From an uncultured Thermoplasmata archaeon (GTDB lineage Archaea; Thermoplasmatota; Thermoplasmata; Lutacidiplasmatales; UBA184): 64,000 bases of DNA. Location of the stretch: positions 71,841 through 135,840 of the forward strand of contig OY970259.1 in assembly GCA_963715645.1 (NCBI GenBank). The letters are read 5' to 3'. Position numbers and translations under genes: made by a program. The notes under the pieces are model-generated. The model had not been told where the DNA came from. It did no database searches and worked only from the letters and a program-made list of their open reading frames with translations. This document shows, one piece after another, positions 5,251 through 21,757 of this stretch (position 1 is the stretch's first letter; the number at the start of each line of letters is the position of its first letter).

Positions 5251-6474
5251 TTAGCGATTCGCGTGACCCGGCTCGAGGATATCGTAGGTTCTCCCCTTCC
5301 AGGCGATCGGCTGCCTTCGGGCCCCGCGGACCAGGGAGGTCGCGACGAGCACCAGGTAGTAGCCGACGGCGACCGGATAGAGGAGGCCGTAGACGGCCGG
5401 GGCGCCGACCCCGTGGGCGAAACCGACGTGCTTGCCGAAGAGCGCGACCCAGAGGAACGCGCCGATTCCGGTGAGGAGGAGCGAGCCGGTCAGAATCCCC
5501 ACCGGCAGGACCAGGAGCGGCAGGAGGAACAGACCGACCAGCCCCGCGAGGAAGCCGACCATCCGAGGTGCGGAGAACTCGGACCCGTGGACGTTCTTGA
5601 GCAACCCTTCGAACATCTCGGAAGGGGTGCGGTACATGCGGGTGGTCGCGAGCTCCGGAGCGTGGGCGATCCGCAGCCGCGCGCCGGCCGTCCGGAGGCG
5701 CCGGGCCAGCACGACGTCCTCGAGGACGTAGGAACGGATGGCCGAGTGGCCGCCCACGCGTTGGTAGGCCTCCCGTCGAACCAGCAGGAATTGCCCGTTG
5801 GCGATCGCCGATCTCGAGGTATCGCGATTGGTCCGAGGCGCTCGGAAGTAGGTGAGGACCATCTGGGTGAAGAACGGCATCACGAGGCGCTCCCAGAATC
5901 CGACCATCTCCACCTTCGGGGAGATCGAGGCGAGGTCGACGTGCTCCGATTCGGCCCATGTCACGACGGTCCGGACCGCTGCGGGGTGGGTCCGGACGTC
6001 GGCGTCGAGGAAGAGCAACCACTCCCCTCCGGTCGACCGCGCCCCCGTCCAACACGCCCAGTTCTTGCCCACCCACCCCCGGGGCAGAGGATCCTCATCG
6101 ATCCGACGCACCCGCGGGCTCCGGGCATCCGCGACCGCCCGGCTTCCGTCCGTCGAGCCGCCGTCGACCACGACGATCTCCAGGTTCGGGTAGTCCTGGG
6201 CGAGGAGCGCGTCGAGGGTCGCGGGCAGGTCGGCCTCTTCGTTCCGTGTCGGGATCACGATGCTGACCCGGACCCCCGAGACGGGTCCGGGCGGTGCGGG
6301 GCGGAGCTCGGGCATCGCGTAGGCCAGCACGATCGCCGCGCCCTGATAGAGGAGGACCACCACCGAAGCGAGGAGGAGGGCGACGACCGCCCAGAGGGGG
6401 AGCATCCCCCCTCGTAGCCACCCTTTGATAAAGCCGTGGCCGCTCGGCGCTCTGGAGCCGTCCGCCGATGCCAA
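5251..6474 (-). CDS. Family-2 glycosyltransferase with C-terminal membrane domain
   Basis: VSIVIPTRNEE..LEIVVVDGGSTDGS..LFLDADV (GT2 DxD core), followed by several hydrophobic helices. Confidence 0.75.
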   Translation of the reverse strand: MASADGSRAPSGHGFIKGWLRGGMLPLWAVVALLLASVVVLLYQGAAIVLAYAMPELRPAPPGPVSGVRVSIVIPTRNEEADLPATLDALLAQDYPNLEIVVVDGGSTDGSRAVADARSPRVRRIDEDPLPRGWVGKNWACWTGARSTGGEWLLFLDADVRTHPAAVRTVVTWAESEHVDLASISPKVEMVGFWERLVMPFFTQMVLTYFRAPRTNRDTSRSAIANGQFLLVRREAYQRVGGHSAIRSYVLEDVVLARRLRTAGARLRIAHAPELATTRMYRTPSEMFEGLLKNVHGSEFSAPRMVGFLAGLVGLFLLPLLVLPVGILTGSLLLTGIGAFLWVALFGKHVGFAHGVGAPAVYGLLYPVAVGYYLVLVATSLVRGARRQPIAWKGRTYDILEPGHANR

Positions 6475-12216: not shown

Positions 12217-14077
12217 ATGCGCTCGGTCGAGCGGTTGGAAGGTCTGGCTCTCGTCGGCCGGGCGACCCTCGGTGGGCTTTCGCTCCCCCTACCGGGCCTC
12301 TTGGAGAGCCGGACCGAGGCAGCGGAGCCCCCGGGCCTCTCGCTCCGTTCGGTCGAGGCGCCGCTCGCCCAGCGTCACCTTCGCATCTCCGACGGCACCT
12401 CGACGCTCGACATCGAATTCCCGGTCCCGTCTCCCGAGGTGGTGGGGCCCCCGGGGGGAGTGGTCCTCGCCGGTCCGGGGACGCTCCTCGTCCGCCCTCC
12501 CTTTCCCCCCACCTCCCCGGCCCCGGGCCGGTTCGCGCGCCCGAGCTCCTGGTCTGGGGCAATGCCCGCGCCCTCTGGGCGGAGGGACTTCCGTTCATCC
12601 AGGCCCTCCGGGAACTGCGCACGACGTTCGGGGCCGGCCCGGTGCTGTGGGCCCCGCGGGTCGCCCTGCCCCACCGCATCCCGCTGCTCTGCTATCTCGG
12701 AGTGGAGCTGACCGACTCCACCGAGGGACAGATCGCCGCCGCCCGGGGCGAGGACCCTCGACCCCACCCTCGGCGTGACCGACCGCACCGTCGCGCGAGC
12801 GGAGGGACGCTGCCGTTGTGCGGCGTGCACCGCCGAGCCGCCGGGTTCGCTCGAGGCCCATACCGCCGAGGCCTACCGGGAGGCGCTCGCCGAGACCCGG
12901 ACGGCCGCCCGGACCGCCGCTCCGGGAGCTTGTCGAGTCGCGGCTCGCGGCCGAGCCGGCGTTGGCCGAGCTGCTCCGGTACGCGGACCGGGAGCTAGCC
13001 GGGCTCCTCGAAGAGCGGACGCCGGTCACCGGGAGTGGGTCCCATACCTACGTCCTCCTCGAGTCCCACCGTCGGCCGGAGATGGTCCGGTTCCGCCGAC
13101 GCCTAAGGGAACGTTACGCTCCCCCACCGTCCAAGTCGGTCCTCCTCCTGGTCCCGTGCTCTCGAACGAAGCCGTACCGCTTCTCCCGGAGCCATCGCCG
13201 CTTCGCGAGCGCTCTCGAAGGGCTCTCTCCCCTCGAGCGCGTCCACCTCGTCTCCGTGAGCTCGCCGATCGGGCTCGTTCCGCGGGAGCTCGAGGACGTG
13301 CCTCCCGCCCGCCACTACGACATCCCGGTCACCGGCGACTGGGAAGAGCGGGAACGGACGGTGGTGATCGAGGGCCTCCGTCACTTCGCGGTCTCGGGTC
13401 ACTACCGGTCGGCCGTCGTCCATCTCGACCCCGAAGAGTACCGGTTCCTGCGAGACGCCTGGCCCGTCGGGCTGCCGGCGCGGTGGACCCTCTCCGGCGA
13501 CCGCACGACCTCCCGGGAGGCCCTTGATGCCCTGCGGAGCGCGATAGGTGAGGCCCTCGCTGCGGAGCGGCCGGTTGCGGGAGGCCCGCTCGCGGTGGTC
13601 CGGGAGGAGCTGCACGAGGTCGCCGCGGTCCAGTTCGGCCGGAGCGCCGCGGACCGCCTCTTCACCGGACCCATCCGTCTCGCCGGACGCCCGTGGTTCC
13701 AGCGGCTGACCGACGGCCGCACGGACCTCGCGACCCTGCGGGAGGAGCGAGGGCTCTTCCACCTGACGGTCGCGGGCGCTCGTCGACTTTTCCCCGACCC
13801 CCCCCTATGGGTCGCCGTGGACCCGGCGCTGCCTCTGACCGGGGACCTGTTCGTGCCGGGCGTGCGCGCAGCGGATCCGGGAATCCGCGCCGGGGACTCG
13901 GTCCTCCTCCTCCGGGAAGGGGCCCTCGCGGGCGTGGGGGAGGCCGCGCTGCCCGGCCGCTTGATGGTCGAGCTGCGGCGCGGGGTTGCGGTCCGGGTGC
14001 GTCACCGGGAGCATGCGGCGACCGACACGCCCATCACCGAGCAAGGTCCTCCGTCGACACCAGGGCCGGTCGTCTAG
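12217..14077 (+). CDS. arcS: Archaeosine synthase ArcS-like protein (TGT-like N-domain, DUF5591-type core, C-terminal PUA), at least three frame breaks
   Basis: Pieces lie in four frames: ..VLWAPRVALPHRIPLLCYLGVELTDS (TGT-like), RCRCAAC zinc motif, LRELVESRL, LLLVPCSRTKPY (DUF5591 hallmark), and a PUA-like end GDSVLLL..GVGEAALPG. Breaks near 12505-12540, 12745-12755 and 12905-12920. GGGAGAGG lies 8 nt before ATG 12217. Confidence 0.6.
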
Positions 14078-14135
14078 GGGTGAGGACGCCGCGCTTACAA
14101 CGCGGAGATTGGCGGTTCGAATCCGCCCCGGCCCA
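14063..14135 (+). tRNA. tRNA-Val (anticodon TAC)
   Basis: Hand-folded cloverleaf: acceptor GGGCCGG/CCGGCCC, D arm GTCT-AGGGGTGA-GGAC, anticodon arm CCGCG-CTTACAA-CGCGG, T arm GGCGG-TTCGAAT-CCGCC, discriminator A. No encoded CCA. Confidence 0.9.
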
Positions 14136-14146
14136 CTCGACCGACG
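14132..14146 (+). repeat. Direct repeat copy 1 (CCCACTCGACCGACG) overlapping the last 4 nt of tRNA-Val
   Basis: Exact 15-mer repeated at 14959-14973. Read directly from the sequence. Confidence 0.85.
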
Positions 14147-14244
14147 GAGGGCATCCCCCCCACTCCGCTACGGGGGATGCTCACCATCGCGGGACCATGG
14201 CGTCGCCTACGCGCAGTACTTTCAACAGGAATCGCTCCGGACGA

Positions 14245-14835
14245 CTATGGGCCTTCTAGGACCACGGGTGATGTAACCGTAACAGTCTCGTTCGTGGCTT
14301 GCTCATCAACGACAACTAAGGCCCAGGTTGCGACGGGCAGGACCCCCAAATCGCTGGTGACGTTGATCGGTAGTGAGGATAGGTTGATTGTCACGGCCGA
14401 GGAGAACGTAGTGTTCCAAGTCCCCCAGGGCGGAGGGTTGAATGGTGCCGGGCACGGGTGGACGAATCCGGTCAATTGTATCTCCAATTCACACGCCCAA
14501 ACGGATGGCAGCACCCAGACCGAAGAAGGACCTTTGACCTCTAGGCTCCCTGAGATTCTTGAGCGCCCGGTCACATTCAGAGGAATCCAAGCAGCACCTG
14601 CCATCGAACATGAGTACTCGGTGCCCCCCGCGACCTGAGTAATGTTACACCACGTGGAGGGCGGGGTAAGCAGCCAGCTCCTCCCCTGAGGCTCGACGAC
14701 GAATGCAGAATGGCTCTGACGCGGTTGAGACTCCAGGGAAAATCCAGCCAGCAACAGGCCAGTTGAGAGGCCAAGGATTAGCACGACAACCCTCCATCTA
14801 GCGGGAGTCTTCAGAACCGGGAAGCGTCCCGTCAT
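14245..14835 (-). CDS. Hypothetical secreted/membrane-anchored glycoprotein-like protein in a low-GC insert
   Basis: 196-aa ORF. N-terminal hydrophobic anchor RWRVVVLILGLSTGLLLAGF and six N-x-S/T sequons (NIT, NVT, NTT, NLS, NVT, NET). Preferred over overlapping + strand ORF 14177..14638, which lacks such features. Confidence 0.5.
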   Translation of the reverse strand: MTGRFPVLKTPARWRVVVLILGLSTGLLLAGFSLESQPRQSHSAFVVEPQGRSWLLTPPSTWCNITQVAGGTEYSCSMAGAAWIPLNVTGRSRISGSLEVKGPSSVWVLPSVWACELEIQLTGFVHPCPAPFNPPPWGTWNTTFSSAVTINLSSLPINVTSDLGVLPVATWALVVVDEQATNETVTVTSPVVLEGP

Positions 14836-14958
14836 GGAACCCCTGCGGGCAATCCCTCAGCGCTCCACTCGCGATGAACGTAACTGACAAGGTGAGCGGA
14901 CCTCGAAGCGGCCCAACAACGGACGGGAAATGCGCCGTTCGGGTGACCGGAGATGCCC

Positions 14959-14973
14959 CCCACTCGACCGACG
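14959..14973 (+). repeat. Direct repeat copy 2 (CCCACTCGACCGACG)
   Basis: Exact copy of 14132-14146, located 124 nt upstream of the insert ORF start. Confidence 0.85.
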
Positions 14974-15160
14974 CCCGACCCCGGGGCCTCGTGGGCCAGG
15001 GGTGGCGGCGCTCGAGGCGCCCGGTCACGATGAGCCAGCACCGACCCGAACGGGCGCCGAGCCCGGGCCTCCCGACGGCCGCTCCCAGTCGGTCGGAGAG
15101 GATGCGTCTCCCCGGGGGGCCGGTGGGGCCGCCCCGAACTCCGAGACCTCGGGGCGCGCG

Positions 15161-16456
15161 TCAGGCTCGCCCCGACCCAGCGGGGGGGAGTGGAGCCACG
15201 ACCTCACCGCCAATCTCCTCGGGCGGCCGAAGGCGGCGGAAACGGGAGTAGACCGCGACATCGTAGCCGATCTTGACGCACCCCGCGAGCGCGAAGGGGG
15301 CGGCGACCCACGGCCCACCCGCCGCGAGGAACGACCCGGTGACCGGCGCACCGAACGCCTGGCAGCTCCGGGCCGCGGTGGTGTAACCGGCCGCGGCGGC
15401 GCGGTCCCCGGGCGGAACGACCGCCTGGGTGTACGACTGGCGCGTGGGGACATCCATCTGAGAGAGCGTGGCCCGTGCGACCCAGAGGACGGACGCGATC
15501 ACGAAGGACGGGGCGAACACGACGAGGATGAGGAAGACGTTCGACGGAATGTGGCTGAAGACCATGGTGTTGACGAGACCGAACCGCCGGGCCAGCGGCG
15601 CGGCCAGAACGAGAGAGGCCCCGGCGGCCAGATTGCTGAGAAAGAAGACGAGCCCGAGCTGGTCGACCCCGGGGTGGAACTGGGTCGAGAAGTAGTAGAC
15701 GACGAGGCTGTTCACGATGAGTCCGCCGGCGAAAGCGTCGACGGAGAACAGCGCCGAGAGAGCGTAGACGACCGGCCGGCTCGGCGGCGAGAGCGGAGAG
15801 GGCCGCTCCCGCGCCGCGAGGCGGTCCACGTCGCTCGAAAGACCCCGATACAGGGGGACGAGAGCGAGACCGAGGAGAGCGTAGAAGAGGAGCGCGGCGT
15901 CGTGCGGGCCCGGAGGAAGCCCCACGACCGTCGGTCCGCGGAGCGAGGTGAGCGGACCGGCCGCGAGGGCGCCCACGGCGACCCCCACGTACCCCAGCAG
16001 GTTGTAGAGGGCGTAGGTGTGTGTTCTCCCCTGGTCCGCCGTCGTTCCCGCGAGAGCGGCCTGCTCAAGGGCGCCCAGGGGGCTCACGTCAGCCCCCCCG
16101 GCCACGATCCCGCCCAACAGGAGAGCCCCGATCAAGAGCGCGGGGTTCGCGATGTCGACCCAGAGGATCCCGCCCCCGAGGGCAAGCGCGGCGGCGGACA
16201 CCACCAAGGTCGATCGACGACGCCAATGCGCTTCGATCCGAGGCACCGCGATGGCCCAGGCCGCGGCTCCCCCCAGCGCGAGACCGAGAATGATGCCGAT
16301 GGCGAAGGACGAGTAACCCACCCCGGTGAGGTCGAGGGCGATCACGATTGAGAGGGCGCCGGCGCCGAAGCCCCGGGCCATCCGGGTCCCCATCAGCAGA
16401 AGGCGGTCCCGCCGCACCGACACCCCTGCCGAGCCGGGCGTGCCGTTCGCGGTCAT
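15161..16456 (-). CDS. Major facilitator superfamily transporter
   Basis: 431-aa ORF with about 12 hydrophobic segments and Gly/Ala-rich helices typical of MFS. No frame break. Confidence 0.75.
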   Translation of the reverse strand: MTANGTPGSAGVSVRRDRLLLMGTRMARGFGAGALSIVIALDLTGVGYSSFAIGIILGLALGGAAAWAIAVPRIEAHWRRRSTLVVSAAALALGGGILWVDIANPALLIGALLLGGIVAGGADVSPLGALEQAALAGTTADQGRTHTYALYNLLGYVGVAVGALAAGPLTSLRGPTVVGLPPGPHDAALLFYALLGLALVPLYRGLSSDVDRLAARERPSPLSPPSRPVVYALSALFSVDAFAGGLIVNSLVVYYFSTQFHPGVDQLGLVFFLSNLAAGASLVLAAPLARRFGLVNTMVFSHIPSNVFLILVVFAPSFVIASVLWVARATLSQMDVPTRQSYTQAVVPPGDRAAAAGYTTAARSCQAFGAPVTGSFLAAGGPWVAAPFALAGCVKIGYDVAVYSRFRRLRPPEEIGGEVVAPLPPAGSGRA

Positions 16457-16538
16457 CGTACCCTCGGTTCGGCCGGACGCGCCCCCGCCTCGACCAAGAG
16501 CGTCGGTGGGACGGTGGGTTCGATGCTGCCCCGTGCCA

Positions 16539-17012
16539 CTATCTGGACCCGCCTCCCGTATGCTCGAGCTTCCCTCCTCGTTCGACCTTCCACCGGCAGT
16601 AGGCGTAGAGCGCGTCGTAAAGCGGGAACTGGAGGCGTTGGTTCTCTAGGTCGTCGCGGGCCAGCATTCGGAAGCCGGTTGCGGCCGCCTCAAGTCCCCC
16701 CGCTTCGAGCTCCCGGCCGGAGCCGCCGTCGGCCACTCGCACGATCTTCGCGAGGGCGAGCAGGGCCGGGTCCGTGAGCTTGTACTTCCGTATGATCGCG
16801 TCAAAGCTCACGTACTCCGTGCCTTGCTCTTCGTAATGGTGGAGCTCCGCCCCGGGCGTGTCGAACGGGATGGCTCCCTCTCGCTCGGCCACCTCCATCA
16901 CGTTCTCCTTGGGTACGTAGAGAAATTCCGCGGAGGGGTCGACGAACTTCCGGATCAACCACGGGCACGCGATCCGGTCCACTCTCGCCTTCTCCCGGGT
17001 CACCCACTTCAT
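16539..17012 (-). CDS. ChrB C-terminal (chromate-resistance) domain protein
   Basis: MKWVTREKARVDRIACPWLIRKFVDPSAEFLYVP..AIPFDTPGAEL..SFDAIIRKYKLTDPALLALAKIVRVAD matches the Chrome_Resist/ChrB domain pattern as I remember it. Confidence 0.7.
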   Translation of the reverse strand: MKWVTREKARVDRIACPWLIRKFVDPSAEFLYVPKENVMEVAEREGAIPFDTPGAELHHYEEQGTEYVSFDAIIRKYKLTDPALLALAKIVRVADGGSGRELEAGGLEAAATGFRMLARDDLENQRLQFPLYDALYAYCRWKVERGGKLEHTGGGSR

Positions 17013-17068
17013 GACGGGACCTCGGCGGAGCGCACTGCGGGCCGGCTCATGAGGATACCATCGGGGGA

Positions 17069-17833
17069 CTAGGCACGAAGAGGACCCCGCGAGGCGGTGG
17101 CGGGGCTCGCCGAAATGATGCTGAGCGCGCTTCGGCGGGAGGCGGGGTGCGATCCGACCCCCCGAGTACGGTCAGGTCCGAGCTCGCGGCGGCCGCTGGG
17201 TCTCGCCCGCCCCACGGGGACCCGTCGGAGCACGACGTACGTGAACGGTTGACGGACCCCCCACGGGGTTCGATGACTCTCCCGGAGCTCCCGGACGAGA
17301 GCGAATCCCGGCGCGAACTCCGCCTCGAGCTTCCTACCGTCGTATCGGACCACGTCGAGGCCGCTACACTTTTCCGGCCCATCCAACGCAAAGGTGGCGA
17401 GCACGAGATGGCCTCCGAGGGGGACGGTCCGTTGAGCCAGATCCACGTACGCTCGTCGGTCCTGGGGGTCGGTGAGGAAGTGAAAGACCGCCCGGTCGTG
17501 CCACACGTCGAATCGGCCCAGGCGATCGATGGTGGTGACGTCCGCGTCGATCCGACGGACGCCCGGAACACCGGCGTTCGACCGATGCTGCCTTGAACGG
17601 AGTGCCGCGTCCGCGATGTCGACAACGGTAACGCCCCTGAACCCCCTCTGGCTCAGTCTCGCGGCGAGAGAGGAGGTGCCTCCGCCGATGTCGATGATGC
17701 GATCCTTCAAGGTCGCAAGGTCTCGAATCAGACGCAACGACAGAACCGGTTCGCCCTGATACCAGCTCAATTCGTCCTCGGCCTTGGTCCGATAGATGGA
17801 CTCCCAGTGCTGCCGGCGAGGTACCGCTGTCAA
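17069..17833 (-). CDS. Class I SAM-dependent methyltransferase
   Basis: WESIY..SWYQ.. N-terminus and motif I IIDIGGGTSSLAARL, then VTVVDIADAAL. The Arg-rich tail after about residue 205 may be non-native. Confidence 0.75.
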   Translation of the reverse strand: MTAVPRRQHWESIYRTKAEDELSWYQGEPVLSLRLIRDLATLKDRIIDIGGGTSSLAARLSQRGFRGVTVVDIADAALRSRQHRSNAGVPGVRRIDADVTTIDRLGRFDVWHDRAVFHFLTDPQDRRAYVDLAQRTVPLGGHLVLATFALDGPEKCSGLDVVRYDGRKLEAEFAPGFALVRELRESHRTPWGVRQPFTYVVLRRVPVGRARPSGRRELGPDRTRGVGSHPASRRSALSIISASPATASRGPLRA

Positions 17834-18025
17834 GGATTGGGCCAGGGACCTTCCCCGCTACAGCAGGGAGCAAAGCTACCCCTCCGTTCTCGATAACTGC
17901 GTCGATTGGCCATGAGTTCGGCCGGGGGCTTGCCCGTCGTCCGGCCAGACGCGAGAACCTGCCTATCGGCCTCGCGGCGGGGGGGCGTTCACGGGACCGC
18001 AGGTTCGACCGTCGGCATCCTGCGT

Positions 18026-18199
18026 CTAACCCGCCGGCCTCCGCTTGATCGCAATCCGCGGTCGGGTTGCCGGGACCCCGGGCTCAGATCGAGTCCGCCG
18101 GGGGCAGGCCGGGCAGCAGGCGCGTTGGACCGAGCAGCAGGCACAGCACTTGCAGCAGCTGGAGCAGGCGCAGCACGCACACGCGAGTTCGGGCGGCAT
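18026..18199 (-). CDS. Putative 57-aa cysteine-rich (metallothionein-like) small protein, not in the supplied ORF track
   Basis: My translation: MPPELACACCACSSCCKCCACCSVQRACCPACPRRTRSEPGVPATRPRIAIKRRPAG*. 13 Cys in residues 7-32 as CxC/CC/CxxC motifs, no aromatics or His, ATG start preceded by GAGGGGGTG. 47 of 57 codons end in G/C. Caveat: the antisense + frame shares the same wobble positions and also stays open (Gln-rich). Confidence 0.35.
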   Translation of the reverse strand: MPPELACACCACSSCCKCCACCSVQRACCPACPRRTRSEPGVPATRPRIAIKRRPAG

Positions 18200-18548
18200 C
18201 ACCCCCTCATGAACCCTACGAGTTCATCTCACCTTCGAGGGATGTCCTTGGGGCCGTTCCCCGGGCGTAGCACGCGGGGCGGCCGACCGGGGGCACGCAA
18301 AGACCTGATGGAAGCTCCCCGTTGTCGAGCAACGGCCCTGGGGCGGCGGGAACCGATTCGAAGCCGGTCTCGCTGTCGTTGCGCGATGCGAAGCCGTTTC
18401 CGTCTACCTCGGGGGGGCGGTGTTGCGATCGGTCCTTGGCCGACTTACTCGGGCCCGGCACCCGCGAGCTCGGGGCTCGAGCCTCCTTCGGCACCCTCGC
18501 CGTGTTCCCCCGGCCCCGCGGACCCCCCCTCCTCCGCTCGACACGGAT

Positions 18549-20588
18549 ATGAGGGGGTCCGCCTCCCTCTCGCGAGACGTTCCGACTTCGATGATCGACC
18601 GAACCGTATCCTCGGAGGAGGGGGGCTTTCCCTGGACGCTCTCCGCGGAGGACCTTCGCCGGACGGCGGGGGACGTGGTCCGCGAGGCGACGGAACGGCT
18701 CGATGCCCTCGTCCTCTCCCCGGACCCCCCCACGCCCGAGAACTTTCTCAAGCCCCTCGACCGGATCCTCCTGCGCGTACGGGACCTCGGCAATTACGGG
18801 AACTTTCTCTTCGCGGTCCACCCGGAGCTCGCCCTCCGGACCGCCGGCCGAGAAGCCTCCGAGGCGGCCGATCGGTTCTTCAACGCCTACCGCATCGACG
18901 ACCGCGTCTACCGAGCGCTCCAGGCGCTCGACCTCGCGGCGGGAGACTCGACGACCCGCTTTGCGGTCGAACGGATGCGACGGGAGATGCGCCGCTCCGG
19001 AGTCGAGAAGGACCCGGAGAGCCGCGCTCGGCTGGTGGCGCTCAATAACCTGATCGACCGGATCGCCAACCAGTACAACGAGAACATCGCCCGGCAGGAG
19101 CGCTCGGTCGAGGTCGACGGAGCGCAGGGCCTTCGGGGCCTTCCGCCGGACTACGTCGCGAGCCACCCCCCGGACCCAGGAGGGAAGGTCCGCATCACGA
19201 CCAAGTATCCGGACTACCACCCGATCATGGCCTACGCGGAGGACGGAGAGGTGCGTCGCCAGCTCCTCGCGGCATTCATGAACCGCGCCTACCCCGACAA
19301 CGTCGGAGTCCTCGACCAGCTCCTCCAGGAGCGCCACGAGCTGGCCAAGGCGCTCGGATACCCGACGTACGCGGCGTTCGCGCTCGAGGACAAGATGATC
19401 GAGCGGCCCGAGGTCGCCCGGACGTTCCTCGCCCGGGTGGCGGAGCGGGTCCGCGAGCCGGCGGCCCGTCACATGGTACGCCTGCTCGAGCGGAAGCGGG
19501 AGGACGAGCCGGCCGCCTCCCGGGTGGAGCTGTGGGATGCGAGCTTCTTCGGCCAGGGATACTACGACCACAAGATCCTCGTGGAGCAGTATGGGGTCGA
19601 CACCAAGCGGCTGCGCGATTACCTTCCGTACCAGCAGGTCCGGGACGGACTCTTCGCGCTCTGCGAGGAGCTCTTCGGCATCCGTTTCCAGCGGATCGAG
19701 ATCCCGAACCTCTGGCACCCGACCGTCGAGGTGTACGACGTGACGGAGGAGGGGCGTCCCCTCGGCCGCTGCTACCTCGACCTCGTCCCCCGGGACGGGA
19801 AGTACAATCACGCGGCCTGCTTCAGCGTGCGCGAAGGGCTCGGGGAGGTTCAACTGCCCCAGGCGGCCCTCGTCTGCAACTTCCTCGACCCGGCCACCCC
19901 GATCGCCACGGCACGGATGCAGTACATGGACGTCGTCACGTTCTTCCACGAGTTCGGCCACCTCCTCCACTCCCTGTTCTCCGGCCACGGACCGTGGGTG
20001 TACACCTCGATGTCCTTCGTGGAGTGGGATTTCATCGAGGCCCCCTCTCAGCTCTTCGAGGAGTGGGCGAGGGACCCGGCCACGCTCGCGCGGTTCGCGC
20101 GCAACCCCGACACCGGAGAGACGGTCCCGGCGGACCTCCTCGCCCGGCTGAAATCCTCCCAGGCGTTCGGCCGGGCCCACGGCTGGCTCCGGCAGGTGGC
20201 GCTGGCGGCCATCTCGCTCGAGCTGTACGACCGCGACCCCGCAGGGCTCGAGACGACTGCCTTCTTCCGGGAAGTGTACCAGCGGTACGTCCCCATGCCC
20301 CTGGAGCCGGAGTATCATCCCCAGGCCTCGTGGGGGCACCTCACCGGGTATTCCGCCTTCTACTACACCTACGTCTGGTCGCTCGTCATCGCTCGGGACC
20401 TCCTGCGGCCGTTCCTGGAGAAAGGGAACCTCACCGACCCCGAGACCGCGGCCCGCTACGCCCGCGAGATCCTTCGGCCCGGCGGCCAGCGTCCGGCGGC
20501 AGACCTCGTCCGCGCCTACCTCGGTCGGGAGTTCAATTTCGAGGCGTTCGAAGCGTGGGTCCAGGCGGACACCCCCCCTCCGCCGTGA
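18549..20588 (+). CDS. M3-family zinc metallopeptidase (thimet oligopeptidase / oligopeptidase A-like)
   Basis: HEFGH zinc motif in FFHEFGHLLHSLF, downstream EAPSQLFE, length about 680 aa. Start taken at ATG 18549 inside ORF 18420..20588. Confidence 0.85.
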   Translation: MRGSASLSRDVPTSMIDRTVSSEEGGFPWTLSAEDLRRTAGDVVREATERLDALVLSPDPPTPENFLKPLDRILLRVRDLGNYGNFLFAVHPELALRTAGREASEAADRFFNAYRIDDRVYRALQALDLAAGDSTTRFAVERMRREMRRSGVEKDPESRARLVALNNLIDRIANQYNENIARQERSVEVDGAQGLRGLPPDYVASHPPDPGGKVRITTKYPDYHPIMAYAEDGEVRRQLLAAFMNRAYPDNVGVLDQLLQERHELAKALGYPTYAAFALEDKMIERPEVARTFLARVAERVREPAARHMVRLLERKREDEPAASRVELWDASFFGQGYYDHKILVEQYGVDTKRLRDYLPYQQVRDGLFALCEELFGIRFQRIEIPNLWHPTVEVYDVTEEGRPLGRCYLDLVPRDGKYNHAACFSVREGLGEVQLPQAALVCNFLDPATPIATARMQYMDVVTFFHEFGHLLHSLFSGHGPWVYTSMSFVEWDFIEAPSQLFEEWARDPATLARFARNPDTGETVPADLLARLKSSQAFGRAHGWLRQVALAAISLELYDRDPAGLETTAFFREVYQRYVPMPLEPEYHPQASWGHLTGYSAFYYTYVWSLVIARDLLRPFLEKGNLTDPETAARYAREILRPGGQRPAADLVRAYLGREFNFEAFEAWVQADTPPPP

Positions 20589-20698: not shown

Positions 20699-21757
20699 AT
20701 GACGAAGAAGGAGAGCCCCGGGCGGTCGACGCCCGCTGCCGCAGGGCCGGGGGTCCGGCGGCTCGCGCCACCCGACCCCAGGACGACCGAGAGGTTCGCG
20801 AACGAGAGGACCGAATCGACGGCGGCGCAGCGTTCACCCTGCACGTGGGTGCGGGGGACCTCCCCGAGCACCTCTTTCGCCGGCTGCTCGGCGCCTACCT
20901 CGCCGGGGCCCGGGAGTTCGTGATCCGGGAACGCACGACGTCGTCCTCCCAGACCCGAGAGGTCGTCCGGAGTTTCTGTCGACGCACGCGCCAGCCCGAA
21001 GTGGTCTCGGACGAGGGCGGCGTCCTCCGGCTCCAGGACCTGGCCTTCGAGAGCCCGGTCTCGCTGGACCGACGGCTCGACCGGATGGGCCATCTCGTCG
21101 TGGACTTTCATCGCGAGGCGGTCGCCTCCTGGCAGGGCCTTCCCCTCGGGGAGGATGGCTACTGGGAACACCGGGACGACGGAGATCGACCGGGAGGCCT
21201 GGTACATTCAGCGGGTCGCCTCGCTCCGCCTGGCGGCGGACCGGCCCCCCCCGAGCCTCCTCGCCGCGTGGACGGTCGCTCGCAGCCTCGAACGGATCGC
21301 GGACCATGCGGTGCTCCTCGGCACGGTGGGCCCCCGGCTCGTTGCGCTCCCCAACGGCCTCGGACCTGCGACCCCTCTGCGGCAGTTCCACGCCCAGGCG
21401 ATGGAACATCTGGAAGGGGTCCTCGGGGCTAGCGACCCGGACGTCGCGAACGGCCTCCTCGACACCGGGGAGGCGCTGATCGGCTCCGGCACCACGCTCG
21501 CAGACCGGCTGCTGCCCGGGGTGGGCAACGGCTCCATGCCGCCCGCTACCGCGGCCGCGGTCGCCCGGCTCCTGGAGTCGATCGGGCGTACAATCGCCTA
21601 CGCCCAGGACATTGCCCAGGTCGTCCTGGACCGCCCCGGGCCCTGGCTCCGCCCTTCGAGTCCGGCCACTTCCCTCCGGTCGCTCCCCTCCCGGGGCCTC
21701 GGAACCGAGCGGAGCGACCGCTCGCGAGAGCGTTTAGTCACCCCGTTCGTTCCGTGA
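20699..21757 (+). CDS. phoU: PhoU-family phosphate regulator homologue (archaeal type), at least two frame breaks, N-terminus unresolved
   Basis: ..AFTLHVGAGDLPEHLFRRLLGAYLAGAREFVIRE.. and ..EIDREAWYIQRVASL..VARSLERIADHA..IGRTIAYAQDIAQ (two PhoU repeats). ATG 20699 is in a different frame from the first repeat (break about 20760-20800). Second break about 21170-21185. Confidence 0.65.

What the first reader, a model, noticed from the sequence alone, without database searches (positions are those of the whole stretch)
18026..18199. Unlisted 57-codon ORF with 13 cysteines in 26 residues: candidate archaeal metallothionein-like peptide
The minus-strand ATG at 18199 opens MPPELACACCACSSCCKCCACCSVQRACCPACPRRTRSEPGVPATRPRIAIKRRPAG*, with the stop at 18026-18028.

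- Residues 7-32 are 50% Cys, arranged as CxC, CC and CxxC.
- There are no aromatic residues and no His, and a basic tail follows. These are the defining compositional criteria of metallothioneins.
- It is below the 60-aa cut-off of the ORF track and lies in a 700-bp stretch with no convincing gene.
- 47 of 57 codons end in G/C, Cys is encoded mostly by TGC, and GAGGGGGTG precedes the ATG.
- It is co-oriented with the ChrB-domain/MTase/MFS genes downstream.

Metallothioneins are essentially undescribed in archaea.

Caveat: the DNA is a GCA/GCT-rich low-complexity tract. The antisense frame (TTG 18045 to TGA 18212, QQARWTEQQAQHLQQLEQAQHAHA) shares the same wobble positions, so GC3 does not discriminate between the two readings.
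Basis: seen in the sequence. Interest (0 to 1): 0.7.

Follow-up and report, generated by a model that had tools for sequence, protein, structure and literature searches.

The report
Conserved 13-cysteine mini-gene beside a methyltransferase
A tiny, never-annotated gene in a soil-type Thermoplasmata archaeon encodes a peptide of about 38 residues with 13 invariant cysteines; it is conserved in four lineages directly upstream of the same methyltransferase gene, making it a credible and testable first candidate for a metallothionein-like metal-binding peptide in Archaea.

Summary
Orthologues lie immediately upstream of, and co-oriented with, the orthologous SAM-methyltransferase in three further contigs (L084, L207, L209).

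- **Conservation:** all four share the skeleton CxCCxCxxCCxCCACCSx3ACCPxCP.
- **Selection:** across the four, 40 of 87 core nucleotide columns vary, yet none of the 26 Cys-determining positions does (P~1e-9).
- **Frame:** the Cys frame has pN/pS 0.22 with saturated synonymous sites. Start and stop align, and the one indel is in frame.
- **Antisense frame:** the Gln frame has no start codon in two loci.

The "basic tail" is an artefact. A 99.86%-identical contig has G6 instead of G5 at 18100-18104, giving a 38-aa peptide (MPPELACACCACSSCCKCCACCSVQRACCPACPPADSI) with a short tail like the orthologues. The window shows similar frameshifts in ArcS and PhoU.

The peptide matches no Pfam, NCBIfam or PDB entry and none of ~15 billion predicted proteins.

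Its function is inferred. Most likely it binds thiophilic metals or metalloids, like a metallothionein, as an accessory to the methyltransferase. The main rival is a cysteine-sensing upstream ORF, which has weaker support. No metal binding or expression has been shown.

The parts
18101..18199 (-). Conserved part of the small ORF: ATG, a short N-terminus (M-P/S/T-x-E/Q), and the 13-Cys core ending in Cys-Pro (residues 1-33).
   Evidence: Translation. Orthologues in L084, L207 and L209 share an identical Cys skeleton. DNA conservation starts at the ATG and ends at the final CCN. pN/pS is 0.22 and 0 of 26 Cys-determining columns vary, P=1.2e-9.
18026..18100 (-). The 'basic tail' (RRTRSEPGVPATRPRIAIKRRPAG*) as it reads in the window. 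It is most likely not part of the real product.
   Evidence: It is lost when the run at 18100-18104 is G6, as in L081. Orthologue tails are 0-6 residues and not basic.
18100..18104 (.). G5 homopolymer. It is G6 in the 99.86%-identical Logan contig L081 and is probably an assembly under-call.
   Evidence: Other window/L081 indels frameshift ArcS and PhoU in the window, while L081 and relatives keep them in one frame.
18084..18086 (-). TGA stop used in the corrected (G6) reading, giving MPPELACACCACSSCCKCCACCSVQRACCPACPPADSI*.
   Evidence: This stop aligns with the L084 stop once one in-frame 12-nt indel is allowed.
17834..18083 (-). Non-conserved spacer of about 250 nt between the small ORF and the MTase start. 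It is lineage-specific.
   Evidence: The corresponding gap is 9 nt in L084, 22 nt in L207 and 0 nt in L209. No Rfam match at E<=1. Folding is no more stable than shuffles.
17069..17833 (-). Class I SAM-dependent methyltransferase (TTG start). It is the only conserved partner of the small ORF.
   Evidence: Pfam Methyltransf_25/11/12. Orthologues are 58-76% identical and share the same N-terminus. The best PDB match is only Rv0560c, E=2.9e-5.
16539..17012 (-). ChrB_C-domain protein, downstream in the same orientation.
   Evidence: Pfam PF09828, E=1e-41. ChrB_C also lies near the MTase orthologues in L082 and L206, which lack the Cys ORF.
15161..16456 (-). MFS transporter, same orientation. It is a neighbour specific to this lineage.
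   Evidence: Pfam MFS_1. It is absent from the other Cys-ORF loci.
14063..14136 (+). tRNA-Val(TAC), the left boundary of the variable genomic slot that holds the cassette.
   Evidence: Relatives L003, L004, L006 and L008 keep ArcS, tRNA-Val and the M3 peptidase but hold an ABC transporter in this slot.
18591..20588 (+). M3-family oligopeptidase, divergent from the cassette and the right boundary of the variable slot.
   Evidence: Pfam Peptidase_M3, E=4e-95. The 665-aa call in L081. Orthologues in 15 Thermoplasmata MAGs.

Best explanation
**Shown.** Window 18084/18101-18199 (-) is a genuine protein-coding small gene under purifying selection. Its product is 33-42 aa (about 38 aa here) with an invariant 13-Cys skeleton, CxCCxCxxCCxCCACCSx3ACCPxCP. 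It forms a two-gene cassette with a class I SAM-dependent methyltransferase. In three of four lineages the two ORFs are 0-22 nt apart, which implies co-transcription and probably translational coupling.

**Inferred.** The peptide acts as a product in its own right. It would be a metallothionein-like ligand whose vicinal and CxC thiolates wrap thiophilic ions (Cu(I), Zn/Cd, or metalloids such as As(III), Sb(III), Se or Te) into thiolate clusters, buffering or sequestering them. From general MT chemistry, 13 Cys would hold roughly 4 divalent ions, 6-8 Cu(I) or about 4 As(III).

It is an accessory rather than an obligate partner of the methyltransferase, because six of the ten closest MTase loci lack it. 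It travels within metal/metalloid-stress gene neighbourhoods.
For: **Coding**
- Four independent orthologues sit at the same position relative to the orthologous MTase.
- The ATG/GTG start and M-x-x-E/Q N-terminus are conserved. The stop aligns and the only indel is 12 nt, in frame.
- 40/87 core columns vary, split 10/7/23 by codon position.
- 0 of 26 Cys-determining columns vary (P=1.2e-9; P=2.9e-6 using only codon positions 1 and 2).
- pN/pS is 0.22 with pS 0.76. Four other frames give 1.3-2.0.
- The antisense Gln frame (0.35) has no start codon upstream of the core in L207 and L209, and its boundaries differ in every locus.

**Peptide-level function**
- The invariant non-Cys residues A16, S19, A23, P26 and P29 all show synonymous codon variation.
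- The core is intact in the window even though it lies about 250 nt from the MTase.

**MT-like composition**
- 31-39% Cys, no aromatic residues, at most one His.

**Genomic context**
- In L084 the cassette follows a 47-aa YHS-domain ORF. It lies between two genes JGI names 'P-type Cu+ transporter', near a CsoR-family gene.
- In the window it precedes ChrB_C and an MFS gene.
- MTase orthologues elsewhere sit beside ArsR-type HTH_5 regulators or ChrB_C.
Against: - There are no metal-binding, transcript or peptide data of any kind.
- There is no homology to any MT family, NCBIfam model or PDB chain, even at E<=10.
- The AlphaFold model is uninformative (pLDDT 61).
- The one invariant partner is a methyltransferase of unknown substrate, which a plain metal sponge does not need.
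- Carrier and non-carrier MTases do not differ systematically.
- Only four lineages are known, and six of the ten nearest MTase loci lack the ORF.
- No metal-sensing regulator is directly adjacent in the window.
- The taxonomic identity of L084, L207 and L209 is inferred only from the MTase clade.
- Its position as a tight upstream ORF also fits a regulatory leader.
Confidence: 0.5

Rival explanations
1. **Cysteine-sensing regulatory upstream ORF.** Ribosomes translating the 13 Cys codons would report Cys-tRNA supply, and by stalling or coupling would set translation or transcription of the downstream methyltransferase. This is how polycysteine leaderless short ORFs work in mycobacteria. On this reading the peptide itself has no function.
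For: - The ORF lies immediately upstream of and co-oriented with the MTase: 9, 22 and 0 nt gaps in L084, L207 and L209.
- It has five CC pairs.
- Its presence is patchy in front of an otherwise unchanged gene, as regulatory leaders often are.
- There is a precedent: Canestrari et al., bioRxiv 10.1101/834739. That paper also notes conserved non-Cys residues in some such ORFs.
Against: - The downstream gene is not recognisably involved in cysteine or sulfur metabolism.
- There is no conserved or unusually stable RNA structure. Z-scores are -0.8 to +1.5, and pairing of the MTase start with the Cys tract is 0.64/0.69 in two loci but 0.05/0.02 in the other two.
- The exact Cys spacing and five non-Cys residues are invariant despite synonymous change, which is more constraint than a codon counter needs.
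- In the window the ORF is about 250 nt from the MTase yet is intact.
- Leader-peptide attenuation has not been described in archaea (own knowledge).
Confidence: 0.2
2. **The peptide is a substrate or co-substrate of the methyltransferase.** It could be a minimal RiPP-like precursor whose thiols are S-methylated. It could also be a thiol platform that presents a bound metalloid to the enzyme for methylation, a 'split ArsM-like' system.
For: - The pairing with the MTase is invariant, and the two ORFs nearly overlap.
- The MTase has only one conserved Cys (GPExCSGL), so it could not chelate a metalloid by itself.
- It shows weak TPMT/TehB-type similarity.
- Vicinal Cys pairs are classic As(III) ligands, as in ArsD and tetracysteine tags (own knowledge).
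Against: - There is no leader-peptide region: only 5-9 residues precede the core.
- No maturase, protease or dedicated exporter is conserved nearby.
- The same MTase clade works without the peptide in six loci and shows no carrier-specific residues.
- The MTase substrate is unknown; the best PDB match is a small-molecule N/O-methyltransferase at E=3e-5.
Confidence: 0.1
3. **Not a gene.** The Cys frame is a by-product of a GCA/TGC-rich low-complexity tract, or the real coding frame is the antisense Gln-rich one.
For: - The tract is weakly repetitive (TRF period 9, score 35).
- The antisense Gln frame shares wobble positions and scores second best (pN/pS 0.35).
- (TGC)n-like tracts that give Cys-rich frames are very common in metagenomes: 120+ unrelated hits.
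- No gene caller ever called this ORF.
Against: - A diverged tract (75% nucleotide identity or less) keeps all 26 Cys-determining bases in four lineages (P~1e-9).
- The conserved block begins at the start codon and ends at the last Cys-Pro.
- The indel is in frame.
- The antisense frame has no start codon in two loci.
- The other frames show pN/pS above 1, and one contains a stop.
Confidence: 0.04

Closest known systems
Metallothioneins: operational class including the vertebrate alpha-domain (CCxCCP motif), fungal Cu-thioneins, and bacterial SmtA/BmtA and MymT
   Same: It is very small, 31-39% Cys, arranged as CC, CxC and CxxC, with no aromatic residues. Small Ala/Ser/Gly/Lys residues fill the gaps between Cys, and the Cys positions are invariant while the linkers drift. 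One locus is embedded in a copper-resistance neighbourhood.
   Different: It shows no sequence relationship to any Pfam or NCBIfam MT family or to any solved MT. It comes from an archaeon; the searched library has no paper using 'archaeal metallothionein', and reviews describe MTs as not widespread in prokaryotes. It is always paired with a SAM-methyltransferase, which no described MT is. Metal binding is untested.
Polycysteine leaderless short ORFs of mycobacteria (Cys-responsive attenuators; Canestrari et al., bioRxiv 10.1101/834739)
   Same: It is an unannotated short ORF with consecutive Cys codons directly upstream of an operonic gene, and it is missed by annotation pipelines.
   Different: Those ORFs precede cysteine-metabolic operons and act through a Cys-codon/RBS RNA duplex. 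Here the downstream gene is an MTase of unknown substrate, no conserved duplex is found, the Cys spacing and several non-Cys residues are strictly conserved, and the host is an archaeon.
ArsD-type metalloid chaperones and the Cys clusters of ArsM (own knowledge)
   Same: Vicinal Cys pairs act as soft-metalloid ligands. There is a functional association with a partner enzyme in detoxification gene clusters.
   Different: There is no homology, the peptide is far smaller, and the partner MTase lacks the conserved Cys set of ArsM, having a single conserved Cys. The association with arsenic genes is only indirect: ArsR-type HTH_5 genes lie next to MTase orthologues that lack the peptide.

Membership tests
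Metallothionein (operational definition) | Low molecular mass (<10 kDa) | tested here: met
   The four orthologues are 33-42 aa; the window copy is 38 aa after the G6 correction.
Metallothionein (operational definition) | High Cys content in CC / CxC / CxxC arrangements, with Cys positions conserved | tested here: met
   All four have 13 Cys (31-39%) in an identical skeleton, and 0 of 26 Cys-determining bases vary.
Metallothionein (operational definition) | Few or no aromatic residues and His | tested here: met
   No F, W or Y in any of the four. There is one His, in the variable N-terminus of L084 only.
Metallothionein (operational definition) | Binds several metal ions in metal-thiolate clusters | not testable with these tools
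   This needs ESI-MS, ICP-MS or spectroscopy of the expressed peptide. The AlphaFold model is low-confidence, as expected for an apo-MT.
Metallothionein (sequence families: Pfam PF00131, PF02069 and others; NCBIfam; PDB) | Detectable homology to an established MT family | tested here: not met
   No hit at E<=10 for any of the four peptides or for their profile. Only one spurious hit among 1.84 billion representatives.
Metallothionein (typical prokaryotic context) | Linked to a metal sensor or metal-resistance genes | tested here: inconclusive
   In L084 a YHS ORF is adjacent, with two Cu+-ATPases and a CsoR-family gene within 6 kb. The window has ChrB_C and MFS. L207 and L209 are too short to judge, and no regulator is directly adjacent.
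Polycysteine upstream-ORF attenuator | Short ORF with consecutive Cys codons immediately upstream of, and co-oriented with, the regulated gene | tested here: met
   The gaps are 0, 9 and 22 nt in three loci, but about 250 nt in the window.
Polycysteine upstream-ORF attenuator | Downstream genes belong to cysteine/sulfur metabolism | tested here: not met
   The downstream gene is a generic class I SAM-MTase with no Cys-pathway family match. Its neighbours are ChrB_C and MFS.
Polycysteine upstream-ORF attenuator | RNA duplex between the Cys-codon tract and the RBS of the downstream gene | tested here: inconclusive
   Pairing probability is 0.64 and 0.69 in L084 and L207, but 0.05 and 0.02 in L209 and the window. 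No fold is more stable than its shuffles.
Polycysteine upstream-ORF attenuator | Constraint limited to the Cys codons and RNA-level features | tested here: not met
   Five non-Cys residues are invariant while their codons vary synonymously.
RiPP precursor peptide | Leader plus core architecture, with an adjacent maturase, protease or exporter | tested here: not met
   Only 5-9 residues precede the core. No rSAM, YcaO, Lan or protease genes occur in any locus.

The most novel reading that the evidence does not exclude
The peptide and the methyltransferase form a two-component capture-and-methylate system for thiophilic metalloids (As, Sb, Se, Te). The 13-Cys peptide would supply in trans the thiolate binding platform that ArsM carries in cis. 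This would make it both the first archaeal metallothionein family and a new mode of biomethylation.
Probability: 0.12. Interest if true: 0.85.

Novelty: new variant of a known kind. Interest (0 to 1): 0.6.

Why it matters
Metallothioneins are well known in eukaryotes and in a few bacteria. The library searched here has no description of one in Archaea.

This work gives a concrete, evolutionarily validated candidate: four orthologues with an invariant Cys skeleton. It can be synthesised at 33-42 residues and tested directly for metal or metalloid binding.

Its obligatory pairing with a methyltransferase is unlike any described MT and hints at a link between thiolate capture and methylation.

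It also exposes a blind spot. The gene is missing from about 15 billion predicted proteins because it is short and low-complexity, so whole families of Cys-rich micro-proteins may be going unseen in MAG annotation.

Tried and rejected
1. **Protein-level homology searches with the peptide or its four-sequence profile.** I tried the word-indexed 5.8-billion-cluster search, exhaustive phmmer over 1.84 billion representatives, Pfam, NCBIfam and PDB. Nothing was found. The one hit, P0001, is not Cys-rich.
2. **Exact-sequence look-up of the ORF.** It is not on record.
3. **Synteny through the M3 peptidase in GTDB genomes.** The relatives lack the whole MFS/ChrB_C/MTase/sORF segment, so they gave no information on the ORF.
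4. **Metagenome scan with a Cys-skeleton DNA pattern.** A pattern including GCN...CCN anchors would have been better.
5. **Viral contigs with a specific pattern.** 0 hits.
7. **Known RNA, promoter or terminator in the intergenic region.** None found.
8. **Attenuator-type RNA structure.** No support.
9. **AlphaFold on the window peptide.** Low confidence and uninformative.
10. **Carrier-specific MTase residues.** None convincing.
11. **att-like repeats bounding the cassette.** None. Only a 15-nt repeat around the neighbouring ORF 14245-14835.
12. **SD motif as evidence of translation.** Rejected, because it is not enriched before real genes.
13. **Organism names for L084, L207 and L209.** None available.

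Full report
**Observation**

- It has 57 codons and 13 Cys, all within residues 7-32.
- It has no aromatic residues and no His.
- Cys is encoded by 11 TGC and 2 TGT.
- GC3 is 46/57.
- GAGGGGGTG lies directly before the ATG.

The ORF sits in a 757-bp interval without called genes (17834-18590). On one side is a class I SAM-methyltransferase (17069-17833, -, TTG start). On the other is a divergent M3 oligopeptidase (18591-20588, +). ChrB_C (16539-17012) and an MFS transporter (15161-16456) follow the MTase on the minus strand.

The organism is a high-GC (0.69) Thermoplasmata archaeon.
- An ArcS-type DUF5591/PUA gene and tRNA-Val lie nearby.
- The best M3-peptidase relatives are 15 Thermoplasmata MAGs, at up to 79% amino-acid identity.

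**Is it more than chance?**

Composition alone is weak evidence. A Cys-skeleton DNA pattern hit more than 120 unrelated (TGC)n-like tracts in metagenomes. Within this lineage, however, the ORF stands out.
- Cys is 0.9% of codons in the window's long ORFs.
- In 347 kb of this and related DNA read in six frames, nothing else exceeds 6 Cys in 26 residues.

**The window copy is frameshifted**

A Logan contig (L081, SRR25213560) is 99.86% identical to the window over 12.5 kb. Most differences are single-base homopolymer indels.
- Several of these indels split ArcS (620 aa) and a PhoU-like gene (352 aa) across frames in the window.
- L081 and three relatives keep both genes in one frame.
- One further indel lies inside the candidate: G5 at 18100-18104 is G6 in L081.

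With G6 the product is MPPELACACCACSSCCKCCACCSVQRACCPACPPADSI*, 38 aa, with the stop at 18084-18086. So the 'basic tail' is very probably an assembly artefact. The Cys core is unaffected.

**Finding orthologues**

Several routes failed.
- Protein databases hold nothing like the peptide.
- The peptidase-based syntenic loci did not help. In relatives the slot between tRNA-Val and the peptidase holds an ABC transporter instead of the MFS/ChrB_C/MTase/sORF segment.

The productive route was the MTase. It has many homologues, and I fetched the contigs of ten close orthologues (58-76% identity).

| Locus | Position | Peptide | Gap to MTase start |
|---|---|---|---|
| L084 | 5863-5991 | MPSEHGPGVACSCCSCSGCCGCCACCSVDRACCPTCPASLQG* | 9 nt |
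| L207 | 1870-1971 | MSAEIACACCSCSDCCRCCACCSVEQACCPTCP* | 22 nt |
| L209 | 207-326 | (GTG) MTDQRISCACCDCASCCKCCACCSAGEACCPTCPPKMAP* | 0 nt; TGA abuts the MTase ATG |

Each of these carries the Cys-rich ORF directly upstream of the MTase on the same strand. Six other MTase loci (L082, L083, L085, L206, L208, L210) have nothing Cys-rich upstream. In the MTase tree, carriers and non-carriers are interspersed in a star-like clade.

**Coding test**

DNA conservation begins at the start codon and ends at the last Cys-Pro codon, and the flanks cannot be aligned. After one in-frame 12-nt indel, start and stop align between the corrected window copy and L084.

Across the four 29-codon cores:
- 40 of 87 columns vary, distributed 10/7/23 over codon positions.
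- None of the 26 positions that determine Cys varies. The hypergeometric P is 1.2e-9, or 2.9e-6 when only first and second positions are considered.
- The Cys frame gives 74% amino-acid identity, pS 0.76 (saturated), pN 0.17 and pN/pS 0.22.
- Four other frames give pN/pS of 1.3-2.0, and one contains a stop.

It fails as a gene for two reasons.
- It has no ATG, GTG or TTG upstream of the core in L207 and L209.
- Its open stretch has different boundaries in every locus.

I therefore take the Cys frame as translated and under purifying selection (about 0.9 confidence).

The five invariant non-Cys residues (Ala16, Ser19, Ala23, Pro26, Pro29) each show synonymous codon variation. Selection therefore acts on the peptide sequence, not merely on the presence of Cys codons.

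**What it does (inference)**

*Metallothionein-like reading.* All sequence-level criteria for a metallothionein hold in the four orthologues: size, 31-39% Cys, CC/CxC/CxxC motifs and no aromatic residues. Context gives moderate support.
- In L084 the cassette directly follows an uncalled 47-aa YHS-domain ORF (Pfam 31.2 bits against a cut-off of 30.3).
- That cassette lies between two genes named 'P-type Cu+ transporter', near a CsoR-family gene.
- The window has ChrB_C and MFS.
- MTase orthologues elsewhere sit next to ArsR-type HTH_5 regulators, SRPBCC proteins or ChrB_C.

*The methyltransferase partner.* The only invariant partner is the MTase, and its substrate is unknown.
- The best PDB match is Rv0560c, E=2.9e-5.
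- There are weak TPMT/TehB-type matches.
- It has a single conserved Cys.
- Carrier and non-carrier enzymes do not differ systematically, so the peptide is an accessory.

My best reading (0.5) is a metal/metalloid-thiolate binding peptide co-expressed with the MTase.

*Main rival (0.2).* The ORF could be a cysteine-sensing upstream ORF like the mycobacterial polycysteine leaders. Against this:
- The downstream gene is not cysteine-metabolic.
- There is no conserved or unusually stable RNA structure, and RBS sequestration is inconsistent.
- The constraint extends to exact spacing and to non-Cys residues.
- The window copy is intact about 250 nt away from the MTase.

*Other rivals.* A substrate or metalloid-platform role for the MTase is possible but unsupported (0.1). 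A non-coding or antisense reading is essentially excluded (0.04).

- The basic tail is an artefact.
- The SD-like motif is no more frequent before long ORFs (5/36) than at random positions (19%).
- ChrB_C and MFS are not conserved partners.

No known RNA family, sigma-70-type promoter or intrinsic terminator lies in the interval. The AlphaFold model is low-confidence.

**Novelty**

The peptide belongs to no described family and is absent from about 15 billion predicted proteins. The searched literature has no paper using 'archaeal metallothionein'. It describes MTs as not widespread in prokaryotes, with only SmtA and MymT functionally studied among bacterial MTs as of 2020. I classify it as a new variant of a known kind: a metallothionein-like peptide with an unprecedented MTase partnership.

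**Limits**

- Only four lineages are known.
- There are no expression or binding data.
- The taxonomy of L084, L207 and L209 is inferred only from the MTase clade, whose named members are Thermoplasmata MAGs.

Noticed in passing
window 12217-14077 and 20821-21757: ArcS (DUF5591/TGT_C2/PUA) and a PhoU-like gene are split across two or three frames in the window by single-base homopolymer indels. They are intact (620 aa and 352 aa) in the 99.86%-identical contig L081 and in relatives. So the window assembly carries systematic indel errors.
   Followed up: yes
window 14137-18590, compared with L003, L004, L006 and L008: The segment between tRNA-Val and the M3 peptidase is a variable slot. Relatives hold an ABC transporter (ATPase plus permease) there. 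This genome holds an unknown 196-aa ORF, MFS, ChrB_C, the MTase and the Cys sORF.
   Followed up: partly
L084 5658-5801 (+): There is an uncalled 47-aa YHS/TRASH-type metal-binding ORF (MSKVKDPVCGMTIESTRAATHGSYGGQPVYFCSVSCRQTYEKTHKQD; Pfam YHS 31.2 bits) directly upstream of the Cys sORF. It is another small metal-related gene that the gene caller missed.
   Followed up: partly
window 17770-17833; L081 5417-5740: The public annotation of the MTase (P0002, 233 aa) starts 21 residues too late compared with orthologues; the true start is TTG at 17833. The Logan gene caller did not call the MTase at all and called an antisense 107-aa ORF instead.
   Followed up: yes
window 14132-14146 and 14959-14973: A perfect 15-nt direct repeat (CCCACTCGACCGACG) overlaps the 3' end of tRNA-Val and recurs 827 bp away, bracketing the unknown ORF 14245-14835 (-). 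It may be an att-like scar, but it is only borderline against chance (~0.1).
   Followed up: no
proteins P0037, P0052 and P0099: Some homologues of the MTase are fused to an OsmC-like (PF02566) peroxiredoxin-type domain. This hints that the enzyme family is linked to thiol or oxidative-stress chemistry.
   Followed up: no
window 18518-18562 and 18613-18625: A 19-nt imperfect inverted repeat (79% complementary, 7-nt loop) lies just upstream of the M3 peptidase start. A 13-nt perfectly complementary arm lies 76 nt further on, inside the gene's 5' end.
   Followed up: no
L210 1-25: The Logan contig begins with an Illumina adapter-like sequence (ACACGACGCTCTTCCGATCT), which indicates untrimmed adapter in that assembly.
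   Followed up: no
window 18206-18224 (-): A small palindrome, ATGAAC-N7-GTTCAT, lies immediately upstream of the sORF start. TCATGA also occurs upstream in L207 but not in L084. No conserved operator could be defined.
   Followed up: partly
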